In this document: positions 824 through 13,688 of the stretch, piece after piece
How positions within the stretch are numbered: the stretch's first letter is position 1
Layout: each line of letters starts with the position of its first letter
NCBI GenBank assembly: GCA_026023565.1
Contig: JAPETS010000002.1
Location: forward strand, 992,001-1,056,000
Source of the DNA: Cirrosporium novae-zelandiae
Taxonomy: Eukaryota
Direction of reading: 5' to 3'
Length of the DNA: 64,000 nt
The notes under the pieces: model-generated
What the model saw: only the letters and a program-made list of their open reading frames with translations
Told to the model about the DNA's origin: nothing
Databases searched by the model: none
Position numbers and translations under genes: made by a program

Positions 824-1906
824 TCATCCCAAAAGCACCCCTCCAATCCCAATCCCCGCCCCAAACATCGCCCCCACACTCACAAAGCTAGAAATACTCC
901 CCATCGCCATTCCCGTAATCCCATGTCCGCTCGTACAACCCCCCGCAACTCTAGCACCAAATGCCATGACTAAACCTCCCATGAATGCTCCCAATTCCGA
1001 TATCTCCTCCCCACCCGCACCCACACCCGATAATAAAATATCTAGTGTGGATGGGAAGATTTTAGAGGTGAGAAAGGTACCGCCTATCATGCCAAGGCAG
1101 AACGTCATTGCCCTTGTGGCTGGGCGTTTAGAAGGGATTCTCCGCTCGGGGGAAGATAGCAAAAACCAAAACCAAGCTCCGAATTGTTCAAAGGAGCCCG
1201 AGGTGCCGAGCGTGTTTCCGCTAATGAGCATGGAGAGGGCCTGGGAGGCTCCGATTAGGAGGCCGGAATAGGTTGGAGGGAGGAAGGGTTTGGGGGATGG
1301 GTTTGTGAGGGAGGATGGTGTGAGTTTGGAGGTTAGGGCTATGGCGAGGGTGCTGAGGGTGCAGAAGGTTAGGAGGGCGAGGGTGGGGGGGAGGTGGAGG
1401 AGGGCGTGGAGGGTGCGTTTTTGTAGGGCTGGGAGTTGCTTGTCTGGTTTAGGGGTTGTTGATGTTGTTGTTGGTGGTGGTTGGCCTTTAAGATCCGGTC
1501 CCATTTTCGCATAGATAATTCCTCCCACCAGCGCACCCGCGAGCGCAAAGTACCCAGACCTGATTCCCGCACCCACCTGTGCGAACACGGTCCCAGGACA
1601 CGCTCCCGCGAGAACCATTCCAAGCCCAATCATCAACCCCCCTATCATATTACCATCATAGACCGTACCGAATCGGTACAGGGGAGACGGTGAGCGGGGC
1701 GTGGTGTTGGAGAGATGGAGGCGGTTCAGCAGAGCAATGATGAGGGCGCTGCTGGCGCTCGCTCCTAGAAATACCTGGAGCATGTGGAAATTCTGGAGGC
1801 GGAATTGGGAGAGGATTATGGGGGGCGCGAAGACGCCGGAGGCGGTTAGGGCGGCGCCGAAGAGAGCGCCGGAGATTAGGTTGGGGATGAATTTTGTTGT
1901 TGCCAT
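824..1906 (-). CDS. YeeE/YedE family (TsuA-like) sulfur/thiosulfate transport membrane protein
   Basis: Intronless 360-aa, Gly-rich, hydrophobic ORF with two repeated halves carrying the family Cys motifs GACPGT and GGCTSGHG. Confidence 0.88.
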   Translation of the reverse strand: MATTKFIPNLISGALFGAALTASGVFAPPIILSQFRLQNFHMLQVFLGASASSALIIALLNRLHLSNTTPRSPSPLYRFGTVYDGNMIGGLMIGLGMVLAGACPGTVFAQVGAGIRSGYFALAGALVGGIIYAKMGPDLKGQPPPTTTSTTPKPDKQLPALQKRTLHALLHLPPTLALLTFCTLSTLAIALTSKLTPSSLTNPSPKPFLPPTYSGLLIGASQALSMLISGNTLGTSGSFEQFGAWFWFLLSSPERRIPSKRPATRAMTFCLGMIGGTFLTSKIFPSTLDILLSGVGAGGEEISELGAFMGGLVMAFGARVAGGCTSGHGITGMAMGSISSFVSVGAMFGAGIGIGGVLLG

Positions 1907-7941: not shown

Positions 7942-8839
7942 ACTATAAGTATTTGTTACTGTAATCTGTAATAAATACTCGTAATAATTAACAACTTTTC
8001 CAAAATTACCGATCAATGGTAGGTATTGGTGTATACGGCATACGCAGATAAAATATTTGTTTTGCATGTGATTGTAGTCTATCTACGGGGTTTAACCTAT
8101 TTAGTGAAAGACAGGGATGATGGGATGGGACAAGGAACAAGTTCTGCGCTCTGTGTTCTGCTGGTTCTGCTGGTTCTTGAACTTTGCGACCTTTCCTGCG
8201 AACAAGCAAACCCGCCTGCAGCATTTCCGCAGATCATACCTTTTACTTAGCTTGCTTTACATCAAAATCTTTACCTATTCAAATACCCAAGTTTCTAGTA
8301 ATTCAACATTACATTCATTTCTCTACCTCTACCTCTACCTTTACCTCTACCTCCAATCTTCTTAAATTATTCTCCCCCCCCCCCTCCCTCCCCCACACAC
8401 ATAGAACGTACTGCTCTCGATCCTTTTCAATCTATCTGTACCTATGCGCGTCGGCCAGATTACGTCTTGATCCCCCTCATCCTATATTCTAGTCCAATAT
8501 AGAGCCATTACTTCCACCATCGGATCTCAAACTATATATCGTCTCAGCAAGCCATATCTGCAGGTTTCACTACCTCGACCTATGTACAACTATCTTTCGC
8601 TTCTTGAACTTTAGTACCTTTTCCTTTCGATTCACTTGGTTCAGCTTCCCCCGATTTTCCAACGAAAAGAAAATTAAAGAAGATATGCGTGGCTGGTGAA
8701 GCATTTGCGAAATATTTCTACAAACCCATCATGATCAGAACACCCTCAAACTCGACGTTACAGTCAAGTTCGAAAAAAAGGGCGATTCCAACATAGCAAT
8801 TGTTGGAAGAAGCATTGTCGCAGTTTCCGTGACCCAGGC

Positions 8840-10322
8840 ATGGATCCTTCGAAGATGCAAGATACAAGCACAACAACGTCGCCTACCGCAACGGCCATGT
8901 TTGGATGTATGTTCATACCTCTTCTCTAATACGCAAGCAAAAGTTATAACCTTCACCTTGATAGACACTTTTGACTTTCCCGAGGATGCTTCTCTTCCTC
9001 CTCCTCCACCGCCCGGGCCTTCGCTTCTCGACGATTCCGAATCGCACATGCTAAATAATTTCTTCGATGATCTGGGGCATGGTCAACCACCAACCGGTTA
9101 TTCTCCTTATAATTTCGGTGAAGCTGGAAATTCGGACCATAATCTTCCATTTGACTTTGATCTCCCTCCAACCTTTGAAGGATCTACGACCTCTCTTCCT
9201 CAACCCACCTACAATACACCAACCACATTTTCTCATTCACCACTGCCTATGTTGGATTATGATAATAGGAACCATGTAAATATTCCAAATCCAATACAAA
9301 TACCGGCAACCACAACCTCGGCCGAAGTCTTGGCTGCTGCTTCAACCTTAATGCGTAATGGTCAAACAAGTCATTTGAATGGAACTGCGGAGGGTTCGAT
9401 ATTTCCCACACAAATAATGGAGAATATTTTTCGAGAGCCAGGATTTACTAACAGACCCTCTGCCAGCAGTCGCTCCTTTAGCTACCACGGGCTCAGCAAC
9501 GGTACCATGTCCATTAACCCTGACCTTACACAATCCAGCCGTGACTTTTTCCCCTCTTCTTCCAGGACACTTTCACTTAATGATACAATGTACCCCTCAT
9601 CACCTCAGACTCTAACAACGCTGCCAAGCCAGAAGAAAGATGGTCTAGTATGGGGTTCCGATCCTTCGATTGGCAAGGGATACGATAATGTACAGGAAGA
9701 AGTGACGGGTATGATGATGAAGCAGCTGGAATGTCTTGAACGTCAGGAGACGGCTCCAAATACAGCAAATAATACAGCCCCTCCCAGTCCAAACATGACA
9801 AAACGGCATGTGGTAACGCAGGTTCCAACAGTCCAGTGCAAATCCATTCGATTAAATGAGCAAGTCGAGGTTGATGAGGGAGAAGAAAACATAGACGAAG
9901 CAAGGCCGAGGAAGCGGAGGAAAAGTAAATACAAGGAAGAAGACTCTAGCGATGAAGAAACATTCTCTCGTTACAACGCCAGGAAACCCAAATCAATCTC
10001 TAAATCGCGGCGAAAACCCTCAACCTCGGAAGGCCTGTCTTCCCGAAACCAGAAATCAACATCACCAAAGAACAAGCCTACAAGAGAAAATCTTACAGAG
10101 GAGCAGAAACGAAACAATCATATCATGTCGGAACAAAAGCGACGAAATCTGATCAAGAAAGGCTATGAAGAGGTATGTGAACTGGTTCCTGGATTAAAGG
10201 ACGGTGGTTTAAGTAAGAGTGCCGTGCTAGCACAGGCAGCAGAATGGTTGGAGGAATTATTGCATGGGAATCAACAACTGCACAAGCAACTGATGACCCT
10301 GAAGGAGTTCCGAGGTGCATAA
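8840..10322 (+). CDS. bHLH transcription factor (INO2/INO4-like fungal family), 2 exons
   Basis: ATG 8840; intron 8907-8964 (GTATGT..TAG) restores the frame. C-terminal bHLH RENLTEEQKRNNHIMSEQKRRNLIKKGYEEVCELVPGL..SKSAVL. Confidence 0.88.
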
Positions 10323-10728
10323 AAAAGATGGACATGGGGTTGGTACTGGGTTTCTCTTATGGGAGCCAATGGTGTTAACGATCATGGCCTAAAGCGGGAG
10401 GGACTGGCGTTCATAACTTGGTTTATGGTTGGTGTGTTTGTGGAACGGAGTTATGCAAAGCCCTGCTCTGATACCTGATACCTGACGGAGTATCTGGAAT
10501 GAAAATATGGGTTGATTTGGTACCTTGTGGATTCCAGGACACGATTTATTGTTTTTCTAGGCGTTCGATAGCTGTATGGTACAACAAGGACTATATGTAG
10601 TACTATGAGTAATATGAATGCTCAATCAATGAGTACCTAGGGCCCAGCCCTAATGGGTAAACCCTTGGTGGCTTTCCAATGAAAACTCAGCATCGGAGTG
10701 TCGGGGTCTAATTGAAAACTCCGCCCGC

Positions 10729-10754
10729 TTTCGGGGAACAGAAAGCTCTAGAAC
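10729..10754 (+). promoter_or_regulatory. Probable heat shock element upstream of AHA1
   Basis: TTC/GAA pentamer array (tTTCgg..GAAc aGAAa gCTCt aGAAc) about 120 nt upstream of the 5'-UTR intron of an Hsp90 co-chaperone gene. Imperfect match. Confidence 0.5.
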
Positions 10755-10911
10755 CGCAGCAAAAGTCTCATCAGCCTTGATTACTTCCCATTCTACAACA
10801 TCATAAATACTTCTACTATTCTCACCTTCACCTTCACCTTCACCTCTTCCACAAACATCAAATTAATCAGGTAAGCAGAAATCCTCTTCTTTTTGCTCTC
10901 ATATCTTCCAC

Positions 10912-11012
10912 CTCAAATGATGAAACATTCAGCTGGCACCAGTCCTAGAAGACTTGTACTCTTTTTATGCGGATCAGCTTTGTAGGAGCAACGTCTCCGT
11001 TCTTCTGACCTT
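10912..11012 (+). ncRNA. Probable intronic box C/D snoRNA (guide for 18S rRNA helix 18, yeast G562-equivalent region)
   Basis: Lies inside the 5'-UTR intron 10871-11085 (GTAAGC..TACTAAC..TAG). Box C ATGATGA 10917-10923; box D CTGA 11005-11008; 11-nt GCTGGCACCAG 10932-10942 is complementary to conserved 18S CUGGUGCCAGC. Confidence 0.75.
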
Positions 11013-11182
11013 TCCAAATATCATTCCATCTTCTTCTTAGCATAGAGGTTTATCAGAAGATACTAACGCTGGAGGATTGCAATAGTAATTGGCTAATATC
11101 TACCCTGCGCTCCAACCAACACCAAGTGACTCGCAAGAGCCATTTTAAATACATACCTTATTACGAATCCAATTATATCAAG

Positions 11183-12445
11183 ATGGTTCTACACAACCCG
11201 AATAACTGGCATTGGGTCAGCAAAGACGCCTCTGGTTGGGCCAAGAATTATCTGAAAGAGAAGCTTGTGGATATATCGGTGGAGGAGGGGGATGTCTCGG
11301 CAAAAATTACGGATGTCACAGACATGACTGGAGACGTGGATGTTAGCCAGAGGAAAGGGAAGGTTATTACGCTATTTGATCTCAAGCTTACTTTAGAATA
11401 TACAGGTAGGCATCTAATTACTATTATCGTTATCATTATTATTATTTTTAGTATTTTAGATTTGAGCCGTGGAGACAATCAATACTAATGAGGTAATGAC
11501 TATATAGGCAAGACAAAGGACAATGAAGATGTTTCAGGCTCAATCACCATCCCCGAAGTTGCCCATGACACCGAGGAAGACGAGTATGTCGTACGTTCCC
11601 TTTTAACCATGTTCCCTCCTACCACAACTTTCCATGCATTACCACTAACCTCGATCTTCTCCAGTTTAATGTAGACATTTTCTCCGACTCTTCCTCGAAA
11701 CAGCCGGTCAAAGATCTAATCCGCAAATCCCTCACCCCCAAACTCCGCATCGCCCTCGCGACCCTCACCCCAGCCCTCGTCGCGGAGCACGGCAAAGATC
11801 TCCAGCATCCCGTCGGCTCCAACCCCTCCTCGGGCTTCCATACTCCAACGTACTATTCCCAAGGCCAACAACAACCATCATCAGCCGCAAATTCCTCAAC
11901 CCACACCTTCAACACTGGAAAAGGTCCCCTCGTCAACACGACAACCCTAAACCTAACGGCCGAATTCCGCACCGACGCCGCCAGCATCTACGAAACCTTC
12001 ACAAACCCCCAACGCCTCGCAGCCTTCACACGCGCACCCCCCAAAACATTTACGGGCGCCACTCCCGGTGGTAAATTCGCCCTCTTCGATGGAAACGTCG
12101 AGGGTAGTTTCGTCTCTCTCAACCCGCCCACACAGCTCACCCAGACCTGGCGGCTGCGCCAATGGCCCGAAGGACACTTTTCTAAAATGGAAATCTCCTT
12201 TGATCAGAACGATGCCGATCATGTGACGGTGATGCGGGTTAAATGGGAGGGCGTACCGGTCGGGCAGGAGGAGGTAGCGGAGAGGAACTGGGAGGAGTAC
12301 TATGTCAGGAGTATCAAGACCACTTTTGGGTAAGTCATGCATCTCCACCTCTTTTGTCAGCTTTTTTTTTACCCGGCTGTGGGACTAAACGAACAAACGA
12401 CTAACCAAAAACCCCCCAACTCCTAGTTACGGAACCGTTCTATGA
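11183..12445 (+). CDS. AHA1: Hsp90 co-chaperone, activator of Hsp90 ATPase, 4 coding exons
   Basis: N-terminus MVLHNPNNWHWV and motif DVSQRKGKVITLFD. Exons 11183-11405, 11508-11590, 11665-12329 and 12427-12445, ending YYVRSIKTTFGYGTVL*. Confidence 0.96.
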
Positions 12446-13688
12446 TCAAAACCCATAGACACAAACACCACAAACCCAAAGCCAAAGAAAACAAGAAACA
12501 ATCATAAAAAAAAGAAACACGAAAAAAATAATGACACATAAACAAATGCCCCCCCTACCCCTGAACATTTCAAGGCACGAAACGAATTTAGAAACGAAAA
12601 CGAGAAACAAATATTGAGAGAAAACGGGAACCAAGAATCATGACCGGGGCTGGGGTTACTACTACTATAGATAGATTAGATCAAACAAGCAAGTAAAGCG
12701 AGTAGGTGGGTGGGTTAGGTGGTTGTAGCAAGGCAAGCATGCAAGCGAGCGAGTGATTGGGTGCATGCATGCATACATATACTCGAGTATGCATGATCAT
12801 GTTCATATCCATTTAGCAATTAGCCGTTAGCTTGAACGAAGAATGCAAAATAGAAATAAGGAATGGAGAATTCAACATGGAATATGATATTGATGTTGGT
12901 ATGGCATATGTAGAGTATAGAGTAGTTAGTATTGGTTAGTGGTTCTATACCCCCCAACGATGCTTTACTCCACTCTGTCATGAGCAAGAGGGATGTGGAT
13001 GTTGGATGTTGGATTAAACCCAATCAAACCAACCCCTCCCCCCCTCCAAAAAAATAAAATAAATATCAGATGAATAATCTTACATACTCTCACTCTACCC
13101 CTACTTTTGTCTTGAGTATTAAGCAAGAAGAAGAGAGGAGAGGGATGTGAAATAAAGTAAAATAAACATTAGATGAATAACCACACACCTACACAACCAT
13201 ACCCACAATCGCACAGCACAAAATATAGAAAAATTAATTAAGTGATATAAGATATAAGATATAAAAACCTATATAAAAAAGTTCTGTCTGTCCTTAAAAG
13301 AGAAGGGTTCCAATTTATCCATTCAATTCATCCATTCGTTCATTCATTTATTCTTGCGTGCTTGCTAGCTTGGTTTCCCATGGTTGGGCGTTTCGTGCGT
13401 AATCGGGTATAGAGTATATAGAGTATATAAAGTAGTGAGGTTGGGAAGTTTAGGAAGTAGGGAAAGTATCTGTACAAGAGAAGTTCAAGGAGGGGATATA
13501 AATATATGATACACGCACGGTGCGGTGTTGGGAGAGTAGATGAAGAAAAGAAAAAGGAAATGAAAAGAGAGATATAGGAAATATAAACAGTGGCTATCCA
13601 ATCTCATTCCATTCCATCCTTGTTAGTCTCGTTTTCGTTCTTCTTTCCATCCATTTCCTTTCCTTCACCCAGACCAAACCCAAACCCC

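What the first reader, a model, noticed from the sequence alone, without database searches (positions are those of the whole stretch)
10871..11085. Hidden box C/D snoRNA in the 5'-UTR intron of the heat-shock co-chaperone gene AHA1, aimed at 18S rRNA helix 18
Seen: a 215-nt non-coding intron (GTAAGC..TACTAAC..TAG), long for this window. It holds a perfect box C (ATGATGA 10917-10923) and box D (CTGA 11005-11008) spanning 92 nt, with degenerate D' (CCTA 10944-10947) and C' (ATGCGGA 10967-10973). Upstream of D', GCTGGCACCAG is the exact complement of the conserved 18S segment CUGGUGCCAGC. A second patch in the D'-C' loop (AGACTTG 10950-10956) complements the overlapping upstream 18S segment CAAGUCU, like the extra base-pairing elements of yeast C/D RNAs. 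Established: the D+5 rule. From my recollection of yeast numbering it points to G562, a site assigned to snR40 in S. cerevisiae. Inference: because the host has an HSE-like element, methylation near the decoding region could be coupled to heat-shock transcription, reminiscent of U14 in vertebrate hsc70 introns.
Basis: partly seen in the sequence, partly recalled or inferred. Interest (0 to 1): 0.8.

Follow-up and report, generated by a model that had tools for sequence, protein, structure and literature searches.

The report
Known snoRNA inside AHA1 leader intron
The intron in front of a fungal heat-shock co-chaperone gene holds a real small nucleolar RNA that guides methylation of one ribosomal RNA base; the RNA family is already known, but its home in this gene is widely conserved.

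Summary
Window 10915-11009 (+) is the only Rfam hit in the 64 kb: box C/D snoRNA family Afu_190 (RF01498), 58.3 bits against a cut-off of 35, E 9e-9. This RNA was cloned in Aspergillus fumigatus (target 18S Gm557), in Neurospora crassa (CD43, Gm559, intronic) and in S. pombe (snR80, Gm565). It shares its D' guide with yeast snR40, which makes Gm562. The RNA is therefore not hidden or new.

The host is an Aha1 gene, and the snoRNA lies in a 215-nt intron of its 5' leader. In 32 of 38 metagenomic copies of the snoRNA, Aha1 exon 1 follows on the same strand, with splice signals at fixed distances. A heat-shock element lies upstream in 27 of 31 copies; it was found in none of 19 control stretches.

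The second patch exists. The invariant core of that loop (UUGUACUC) is, however, a perfect complement of 18S 41-48 nt upstream of the target, in 32 of 35 sequences.

Expression, splicing, methylation and heat-shock coupling could not be tested here. Two things may be new: the conserved Aha1/heat-shock-element/snoRNA module and the distal pairing. Interest is low to moderate.

The parts
10741..10753 (.). Heat-shock-element-like site GAAAGCTCTAGAA: three alternating GAA/TTC units with one mismatch, in the Aha1 promoter
   Evidence: A site with at most one mismatch lies within 299 nt upstream of box C in 27 of 31 related loci that have at least 250 nt upstream. Controls: 0 of 19 downstream stretches and 18 of 213 300-nt tiles of the window.
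10802..10809 (+). TATA-like CATAAATA, followed by a pyrimidine-rich CACCTT repeat. The transcription start is presumed to lie between here and 10870.
   Evidence: Read from the sequence. This is inference: no transcript data were available.
10871..11085 (+). 5'-leader intron of Aha1, 215 nt: GTAAGC donor, TACTAAC branch site at 11061-11067, TAG acceptor
   Evidence: By my patterns, equivalent signals are present in related loci: donor in 32 of 35 (median 45.5 nt before box C), branch site in 34 of 35 (median 57 nt after box D). The acceptor precedes the ATG in 29 of 29.
10915..11009 (+). Box C/D snoRNA, Rfam RF01498 (Afu_190)
   Evidence: 58.3 bits, gathering score 35, E 9.4e-9, model positions 1-100 of 100.
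10917..10923 (+). Box C, ATGATGA
   Evidence: TGATGA was part of my search pattern, so its invariance carries no weight.
10932..10942 (+). D' guide GCTGGCACCAG. C10939 (fifth base before D') faces the target G of 18S helix 18.
   Evidence: exact complement of 18S -3..+7, and the best duplex in the whole stand-in 18S (-24.2 against -17.6 kcal/mol).
10944..10947 (+). Degenerate box D', CCTA
   Evidence: The same columns hold CTGA, CATA, CCGA or CCTA in related sequences. The last base is A in 35 of 35.
10950..10961 (+). Accessory pairing element AGACTTGTACTC. AGACTTG complements 18S -8..-2 and TTGTACTC complements 18S -48..-41. It may sit as the loop of a short stem, 10947-10952 with 10960-10965.
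   Evidence: The stem has only weak covariation support.
10967..10973 (+). Degenerate box C', ATGCGGA
   Evidence: aligned with TGATGA in 11 of 35 rows. The final GA is invariant.
10985..10998 (+). Short hairpin GGAG/CTCC in the place where a D guide would be. No conserved second guide is present.
   Evidence: a hairpin at this place in single folds, with 21 different 5' arms. Not established statistically.
11005..11008 (+). Box D, CTGA
   Evidence: It was not part of the search pattern; every row has a CTGA 75-97 nt after box C (L089, with its insertion, later). I cut the rows at that CTGA, so its invariance in the alignment carries little weight.
11086..11182 (+). Second 5'-leader exon, without ATG
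11183..12445 (+). Aha1 coding region. Exons 11183-11405, 11508-11590, 11665-12329 and 12427-12445, giving 329 aa.
   Evidence: Exon 1 matches Aha1_N at 2.1e-22 and exon 3 matches AHSA1 at 7.5e-21. The model is inferred from splice signals and reading frame.

Best explanation
Window 10915-11009 encodes the filamentous-ascomycete form of the snR40 / snR80 / CD43 / Afu_190 box C/D snoRNA.

Inferred route of production:
- It is made from the Aha1 pre-mRNA.
- The first intron, which lies in the 5' leader, is spliced out, debranched and trimmed to the snoRNP-protected core of about 95-105 nt.

Inferred action:
- The C'/D' half of the particle places the methyltransferase Nop1/fibrillarin on 18S rRNA.
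- The 11-nt guide pairs with CUGGUGCCAGC in helix 18.
- The G opposite C10939 (yeast G562, about G558 here) receives a 2'-O-methyl group.
- The loop between D' and C' adds a second contact with 18S. This is mainly UUGUACUC with GAGUACAA 41-48 nt upstream. In most species AGACUUG also pairs with the stretch directly beside the target.
- The part before box D holds a small hairpin instead of a second guide.

Shown here: family membership, complementarity, host gene, conserved linkage to Aha1, splice signals and the heat-shock element.

Inferred only: expression, processing from the intron, and the methylation itself.
For: **Family**
- Rfam Afu_190 scores 58.3 bits against a gathering score of 35.
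- 16 of 20 sampled related loci also pass that score.

**Experiments on relatives, as read in papers**
- A. fumigatus Afu-190: 8 cDNA clones, 107 nt, northern band of 110 nt, predicted target Gm557 (PMC2377427, Table 1).
- N. crassa CD43: 96 nt, Gm559, D' guide with 11 pairs and no mismatch, location 'Intron' (PMC2780460, Table 1).
- S. pombe snR80: Gm565 listed among the methylation sites that paper identified (PMC4138321, passage).
- Yeast snR40 is required for Gm562 (PMC4344503).

**Target**
- The guide is an exact 11-nt complement, and this is the best duplex in the stand-in 18S.

**Host**
- Aha1 domains.
- A. fumigatus Afu-190 lies between Afu4g11320 and Afu4g11330, and AFUA_4G11330 is listed as 'Aha1 domain family' (PMC4159865, table).
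- 32 of 38 metagenomic snoRNA loci carry Aha1 exon 1 on the same strand. The ATG lies 91-265 nt after box D in all but one, where it is 1000 nt away.
- Five of the six loci without Aha1 have at most 233 nt of downstream DNA.

**Intron**
- Donor, branch site and acceptor are conserved at narrow distances.

**Accessory pairing**
- TTGTAC is unchanged in 34 of 35 aligned rows.
- At least 8 Watson-Crick pairs with 18S -48..-41 are present in 32 of 35.
- The pairing lengthens to 9-11 pairs in L043, L045, L047, L070, L098 and L105; four of these (L045, L070, L098, L105) lack the AGACUUG-type patch even with G-U pairs allowed.
Against: - No transcript evidence for this organism: no RNA run was listed and no whole genome is held, so neither the RNA nor the splice junction was seen.
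- The 18S used is a stand-in from contaminant contigs, not this species' own rRNA.
- The related loci come from unnamed metagenome contigs. Counts are therefore not independent and not complete.
- Two related loci depart from the pattern. L070 has no Aha1 within 1431 nt. L089 has another snoRNA (Afu_304) upstream and no heat-shock element.
- Structure support is weak for the D'-C' stem and absent for the C'-D hairpin.
Confidence: 0.87

Rival explanations
1. Regulatory coupling. Because the snoRNA is cut from an Hsf1-driven Aha1 transcript, its supply rises or falls with heat shock, and so does the methylation level of the helix-18 G. Ribosomes would then be tuned under stress.
For: - A heat-shock-element-like site lies upstream of the snoRNA intron in the window and in 27 of 31 related loci, against 0 of 19 control stretches.
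- The linkage to Aha1 is conserved.
- From recollection, not from any call: AHA1 is an Hsf1 target in yeast.
Against: - Nothing here measures RNA or methylation.
- Hsf1 target promoters also give strong basal expression, which alone could explain why one hosts a snoRNA (general knowledge, recalled).
- snoRNPs are long-lived and rRNA synthesis falls in heat shock (recalled).
- Deletion of yeast snR40 gave no growth, processing or translation defect at 19, 30 or 37 C (PMC4344503).
Confidence: 0.13
2. Independent gene. The snoRNA has its own promoter and is not processed from the Aha1 pre-mRNA; it merely sits in the intergenic space upstream of Aha1, as the 2008 A. fumigatus table labels it.
For: - Afu-190 is listed as 'intergenic' (PMC2377427).
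- From recollection: yeast snR40 is an independent gene.
- L070 and L089 show the snoRNA without a visible Aha1.
Against: - Canonical donor, branch site and acceptor flank the snoRNA in nearly all related loci. Box D lies a median 57 nt before the branch site, and the acceptor always precedes the ATG.
- The N. crassa homologue is listed as intronic.
- No separate promoter signal is evident between the snoRNA and the ATG (read).
Confidence: 0.07
3. The snoRNA acts mainly as a folding chaperone. By holding 18S at two places (helix 17 side and helix 18) it helps assembly of the 5' domain, and methylation is secondary.
For: - Two or three separate complementarities to one 60-nt stretch of 18S; the distal one is more conserved than needed for a methylation guide alone.
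- Extra base-pairing is known to aid box C/D function (PMC3116282, passages).
Against: - In the tested cases, extra pairing stimulates methylation rather than replacing it.
- Loss of snR40 in yeast gives no processing defect.
Confidence: 0.08
4. Chance resemblance or a decayed copy without function.
For: The D' and C' boxes are degenerate, and there is no clear terminal stem next to boxes C and D.
Against: - E 9.4e-9 against a curated model.
- Guide, boxes and loop are conserved across 34 distinct related sequences.
- Divergent C'/D' motifs are known to be active (PMC3116282, abstract).
Confidence: 0.01

Closest known systems
Afu_190 (Rfam RF01498; A. fumigatus Afu-190, accession AM921921 in PMC2377427)
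   Same: Same family by covariance model (58.3 bits). Same box order, same D' guide and predicted target (Gm557), and the same place upstream of the Aha1 gene (Afu4g11330).
   Different: The 2008 table calls the location intergenic, not an Aha1 leader intron. The sequence between C' and D differs.
N. crassa CD43 and S. pombe snR80
   Same: D' guide of 11 pairs to the equivalent G (Gm559, Gm565). CD43 is intron-encoded. The S. pombe paper lists Gm565 among the methylation sites it identified.
   Different: The main texts I could read do not name the host genes, and the supplements were closed. I did not see these sequences.
S. cerevisiae snR40 (Rfam RF01201)
   Same: Same D' guide core and the same Gm562 target. 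It shares the GUACUC motif in the D'-C' loop (consensus shown).
   Different: - Only 18.5 bits against a cut-off of 50.
- The yeast guide carries an extra U and also serves Gm1271; the window's guide binds that site weakly (-14.0 kcal/mol).
- Yeast has a D guide for 25S Um898; here a hairpin stands in that place.
- From recollection, the yeast gene is independent, not intronic.
U14 snoRNA in vertebrate hsc70 introns (recalled, not read here)
   Same: A box C/D snoRNA hosted in an intron of a chaperone-system gene.
   Different: Different snoRNA, target and host. hsc70 is the constitutive cognate, and there the introns lie within the coding region.
Extra base-pairing elements of yeast box C/D snoRNAs (van Nues et al. 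2011, PMC3116282), e.g. the snR70 loop
   Same: A conserved sequence between D' and C', complementary to rRNA near the methylation site. An overlap of 1-2 nt with the guide's target is described there as well.
   Different: The best-conserved contact here is 41-48 nt away rather than immediately adjacent. In 2011 snR40 was listed for its then-known sites, before Gm562 was found.

Membership tests
Rfam RF01498 Afu_190 | Covariance-model score at or above the curated gathering score (35 bits) | tested here: met
   58.3 bits over the full model, positions 1-100.
Rfam RF01498 Afu_190 | D' guide complementary to 18S helix 18, with the target G at D'+5 | tested here: met
   Exact 11-nt complement, and the best site in the stand-in 18S. 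The stand-in is not this species' own rRNA.
Rfam RF01498 Afu_190 | Stable RNA of about 100-110 nt | not testable with these tools
   No RNA run was listed. It was shown only for A. fumigatus in the literature.
Box C/D methylation guide snoRNA (general) | Box C RUGAUGA near the 5' end and box D CUGA near the 3' end, with internal D' and C' | tested here: met
   D' and C' are degenerate but align with canonical boxes in related sequences.
Box C/D methylation guide snoRNA (general) | The target nucleotide is 2'-O-methylated, and this depends on the snoRNA | not testable with these tools
   Known for yeast snR40/Gm562. The S. pombe paper lists Gm565 among the methylation sites it identified.
S. 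cerevisiae snR40 (Rfam RF01201) | Covariance-model score at or above 50 bits | tested here: not met
   18.5 bits, E 0.4 on a 601-nt search.
S. cerevisiae snR40 (Rfam RF01201) | The same D' guide also serves 18S Gm1271 | tested here: not met
   The duplex with the GGUGCAUGGCC site is -14.0 kcal/mol, weaker than five unrelated sites.
S. cerevisiae snR40 (Rfam RF01201) | D guide to 25S Um898 | tested here: inconclusive
   The region before box D is not conserved and folds as a small hairpin. No 25S sequence was at hand to scan.
Intron-encoded snoRNA | Lies in the sense direction within an intron that has canonical splice signals, at the usual distance from the branch site | tested here: met
   GTAAGC, TACTAAC and TAG are present, with box D 58 nt before the branch A. 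The same layout is seen in related loci.
Intron-encoded snoRNA | A spliced host transcript exists and the snoRNA depends on it | not testable with these tools
   No RNA data were available.
Hsf1-regulated (heat-shock element) promoter | Three or more alternating nGAAn/nTTCn units upstream of the start site | tested here: met
   GAAAGCTCTAGAA at 10741-10753, with one mismatch. Conserved in 27 of 31 related loci against 0 of 19 controls.
Hsf1-regulated (heat-shock element) promoter | Induction by heat or binding by Hsf1 | not testable with these tools
   None.

The most novel reading that the evidence does not exclude
The heat-shock element, the Aha1 gene and the snoRNA form one conserved unit in filamentous ascomycetes. 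Hsf1 activity would then set the supply of the guide for the helix-18 Gm next to the decoding centre. The snoRNA would clamp 18S at two places (helix 17 side and helix 18) during small-subunit assembly. Proteostasis signalling would be wired directly to a ribosomal RNA modification or folding step.
Probability: 0.12. Interest if true: 0.65.

Novelty: already known. Interest (0 to 1): 0.3.

Why it matters
For annotation, this places a known snoRNA and a leader intron on an Aha1 gene whose A. fumigatus counterpart was listed as intergenic.

Two side results may be worth a note from a specialist.

1. The snoRNA has stayed in the leader intron of Aha1, behind a conserved heat-shock element, in many divergent fungi. 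Two full-text searches found no paper that states this.
2. The invariant loop motif, shared with yeast snR40, is a perfect complement of 18S 41-48 nt upstream of Gm562. This gives a testable reason for its conservation.

Neither result changes what is known about how box C/D snoRNAs work.

Tried and rejected
- **RNA evidence.** No RNA holder was listed for window 10600-12600, so no reads could be laid.
- **Own genome.** None is held, so this species' rRNA and any second copies could not be searched.
- **Supplementary files.** These were closed. The host genes of N. crassa CD43 and S. pombe snR80, and the snR40 panel of van Nues et al., may be named there.
- **Earlier findings.** Nothing was found for this sequence or genome.
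- **C'-D hairpin.**
  - Single-sequence folds show one in every row; the innermost helix has at least 4 pairs in 24 of 35.
  - Energies are not better than shuffles: median z -1.1, and only 5 of 35 at or below 0.05.
  - RNAalifold on a MAFFT alignment of 26 of the 35 sequences gave 0 pairs.
  - I keep it only as a tentative feature.
- **D'-C' stem.** 76% of cells are paired against 66% in shuffles, and 12 cells changed on both sides against 4.3. The covariation score is no better than with partners slid by +2. Support is weak.
- **Nine-nt complement GTCCTAGAA to 18S +279..+287.** Rejected as chance: it includes the D' box and is lost in related sequences with CTGA, CATA or CCGA.
- **A D-guide target.** The best 18S duplex for 10986-11004 is -18.0 kcal/mol at position 354. 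That region is not conserved among related sequences, so it was rejected. 25S was not available.
- **Other pattern hits.** The remaining hits of the 114 loci were set aside.
  - L081 matched my TTGTAC filter but I judged it not to be a snoRNA by eye; it was not tested further.
  - L017 is plastid DNA.
  - The rest lack the snoRNA body; I judged them by eye and did not test them further.
- **Divergent relatives.** L045, L070 and L073 gave no Afu_190 match at E 0.01, and L105 gave 34.2 bits. I kept them as divergent relatives. The grounds were the shared layout for all four, and Aha1 downstream of L045 and L073.

Full report
**1. The observation**

- The stretch 10871-11085 runs from GTAAGC through TACTAAC (11061-11067) to TAG and is 215 nt long.
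- The three introns inside the coding region of the same gene are 102, 74 and 97 nt.
- Box C is at 10917-10923, D' at 10944-10947, C' at 10967-10973 and box D at 11005-11008.
- A scan of the whole window against Rfam gives one match only: 10915-11009 (+) to RF01498 (Afu_190, box C/D snoRNA). It scores 58.3 bits against a gathering score of 35, E 9.4e-9, over the full model.
- It is still the only match when the threshold is relaxed to E 0.5.

The feature is real and far beyond chance.

**2. What the RNA is**

Afu_190 comes from a cDNA screen of Aspergillus fumigatus. Table 1 of PMC2377427 lists 8 clones, a 107-nt cDNA, a 110-nt northern band and a predicted target of Gm557 in 18S. The location is given as 'intergenic; Afu4g11320/Afu4g11330'.

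Relatives in other fungi:
- N. crassa CD43 is 96 nt, targets 18S-Gm559 with a D' guide of 11 pairs and no mismatch, and is listed as 'Intron'. Its fission-yeast counterpart is snR80 (PMC2780460, Table 1).
- For S. pombe, 18S Gm565 guided by snR80 is listed among the methylation sites that paper identified (PMC4138321, passage).
- In budding yeast the same helix-18 G is Gm562. It depends on snR40, which uses one D' guide for both Gm562 and Gm1271 and a D guide for 25S Um898 (PMC4344503, abstract and passages).
- The fungal snoRNAome survey predicts the 18S-562 interaction for the snR40 family (CD_43) in 71 organisms (PMC5824354, section 29).

The window's RNA scores only 18.5 bits on the snR40 model, whose cut-off is 50. 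I file it under Afu_190 and treat snR40 as the functional counterpart.

**3. The target**

No genome is held for this window.
- 47 contigs in assemblies labelled bacterial or archaeal hold eukaryotic 18S.
- I used seven with the sequence type that I recall as fungal. L129 was the nearly full-length stand-in. No taxonomic check was made.
- The guide 10932-10942 is an exact complement of 18S -3..+7 around the target.
- With D' at 10944-10947, the fifth base upstream is C10939. It faces the second G of CUGG, about position 558 in L129, counted from the NS1 primer site whose position I recall.
- Over the whole stand-in 18S this is the best duplex for the guide: -24.2 kcal/mol against -17.6 for the next best.
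- The site equivalent to yeast G1271 reaches only -14.0 kcal/mol.

This form of the guide therefore looks specialised for the helix-18 site.

**4. The host gene**

- Exon 1 (11183-11405) matches Aha1_N at 2.1e-22, and exon 3 (11665-12329) matches AHSA1 at 7.5e-21.
- The protein atlas places exon 3 with ascomycete Aha1 clusters.
- Splice signals and reading frame give a 329-aa product.
- There is no ATG in 10760-10870 or in 11086-11182, so the snoRNA intron lies in the 5' leader.
- AFUA_4G11330, one of the two genes that flank Afu-190, is listed as 'Aha1 domain family' (PMC4159865, table). The same neighbourhood therefore holds in A. fumigatus.

**5. Related loci**

- I took 38 of the 114 as copies of the snoRNA. 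37 have the snoRNA body, not counting L081, which matched the filter but which I judged by eye not to be a snoRNA.
- The 38th, L024, was recognised by its Aha1 neighbour.
- 34 of the 38 are distinct sequences, with some near-duplicates among them.
- Of 20 sampled, 16 pass the Afu_190 gathering score.

Linkage to Aha1:
- Aha1 exon 1 lies downstream on the same strand in 32 of the 38.
- The ATG comes 91-265 nt after box D, except in L076 where it is 1000 nt away.
- Five of the six loci without Aha1 have at most 233 nt of DNA after box D.
- Only L070 has room (1431 nt) and no Aha1.
- L089 carries another snoRNA, Afu_304, about 185 nt upstream.

Splice signals, found with simple patterns over the 35 distinct sequences (window included):

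| Signal | Found in | Median distance | Range |
|---|---|---|---|
| Donor, before box C | 32 of 35 | 45.5 nt | 32-113 nt |
| Branch site, after box D | 34 of 35 | 57 nt | 50-79 nt |
| Acceptor, after box D | 34 of 35 | 70 nt | 61-94 nt |

In all 29 sequences where the ATG is known, the acceptor precedes it. The window's own values are 46, 58 and 77 nt.

This is comparative evidence for a conserved leader intron that carries the snoRNA. It is not transcript evidence, because no RNA run was listed.

**6. The heat-shock element**

- GAAAGCTCTAGAA at 10741-10753 is a three-unit element with one mismatch.
- The same kind of site, often TTCTAGAGCTTTC, lies within 299 nt upstream of box C in 27 of 31 distinct related loci that have at least 250 nt upstream.
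- Controls: 0 of 19 stretches taken 600 nt downstream, and 18 of 213 tiles of 300 nt across the window. About 10% of shuffled 500-nt upstream regions hold such a site.

The promoter that should drive both Aha1 and the snoRNA therefore carries a conserved Hsf1-type site. Whether methylation follows heat shock is untested. Deletion of yeast snR40 has no growth or translation phenotype at 19-37 C. A strong basal promoter is a sufficient reason for the arrangement.

**7. The loop between D' and C'**

- It overlaps the guide's target by 2 nt, a kind of overlap described for yeast snoRNAs (PMC3116282).
- The 12-mer AGACUUGUACUC has its best 18S duplex at that adjacent site: -13.7 kcal/mol, with one wobble pair and one mismatch.

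The positions that never change, however, are TTGTAC(TC).
- TT is unchanged in 35 of 35 aligned rows, G, T, A and C each in 34 of 35, and the final TC in 32 of 35.
- The AGAC part varies.
- None of these columns was in the search pattern.

TTGTACTC is an exact complement of GAGTACAA at 18S -48..-41, and that is its best site in the whole stand-in 18S. Across the 35 sequences:
- The distal site has at least 8 Watson-Crick pairs in 32, and at least 6 in all 35.
- The adjacent site has at least 6 in 24.
- Where the adjacent patch is lost even with G-U pairs allowed (L045, L070, L098, L105), the distal pairing lengthens to 9-11 pairs. L043 and L047 also reach 9.
- L024 has a different loop, and that loop is complementary to the neighbouring GGAAUGA.
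- The U and A in the middle of UUGUAC would be a wobble pair and a mismatch in the adjacent register. Their invariance is better explained by the distal pairing.

The yeast snR40 consensus also holds GUACUC. Both contacts may be used, perhaps in turn. The 18S used is a stand-in, so this part is inference from complementarity and conservation.

**8. Other anatomy**

- A stem between 10947-10952 and 10960-10965 would present CUUGUAC as a loop, but its covariation support is weak.
- Between C' and box D each sequence can form a small hairpin, with 21 different 5' arms.
- Neither shuffle tests nor RNAalifold establish that hairpin.
- The region is not conserved in sequence, so I see no second guide. 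25S could not be scanned.

**9. Comparison and novelty**

The RNA, its target and its intronic nature in filamentous fungi are already known.

What I did not find in print:
- The statement that the host is Aha1 and that this linkage, with its heat-shock element, is widely conserved. The searches were AHA1 + snoRNA + intron + host gene (one irrelevant paper) and 'activator of Hsp90 ATPase' + snoRNA + intron (none).
- The distal pairing of the loop, for which I made no dedicated search; the passages I read do not mention it.

**10. Verdict**

- The core interpretation is supported.
- The claim of a hidden RNA is not supported.
- Heat-shock coupling is open.
- Interest is 0.3.

Noticed in passing
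window 8700-10322 (+): A long open frame directly upstream of the Aha1 promoter ends in a helix-loop-helix domain (HLH 9e-6; INO4-type bHLH 1e-5, which is below that model's cut-off).
   Followed up: partly
window 10824-10847: CACCTT is repeated three to four times just before the leader intron, in the presumed first exon or start-site region.
   Followed up: no
L089:2-113 and L089:298-410: One related contig has snoRNA Afu_304 (63.1 bits) about 185 nt upstream of its Afu_190 copy. That copy carries a long extra hairpin, and no heat-shock element lies upstream. This is a tandem arrangement unlike the Aha1 leader intron.
   Followed up: partly
L070 (snoRNA at 1426-1525, minus strand): This snoRNA copy has splice signals but no Aha1 within 1431 nt downstream. 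It is the only clear exception to the linkage.
   Followed up: partly
L115-L161: At least 47 contigs in assemblies labelled as bacteria or archaea hold eukaryotic 18S rDNA. From recollection they are mostly of plant and fungal types. They are contamination of those assemblies.
   Followed up: no
L039, L041, L111; L026, L064: These contigs have box C and the same helix-18 guide but a different body, and no Aha1 nearby. L041 has a terminal stem and scores 32.3 bits to Afu_190. They are probably the same guide family in other eukaryote lineages.
   Followed up: partly
L073, L102, L110: This variant has the loop UUGUACCA instead of UUGUACUC. One 18S-like contig (L139) has GGGTACAA at the matching place. 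That would be a compensating change if the two came from the same kind of organism, which cannot be told.
   Followed up: no
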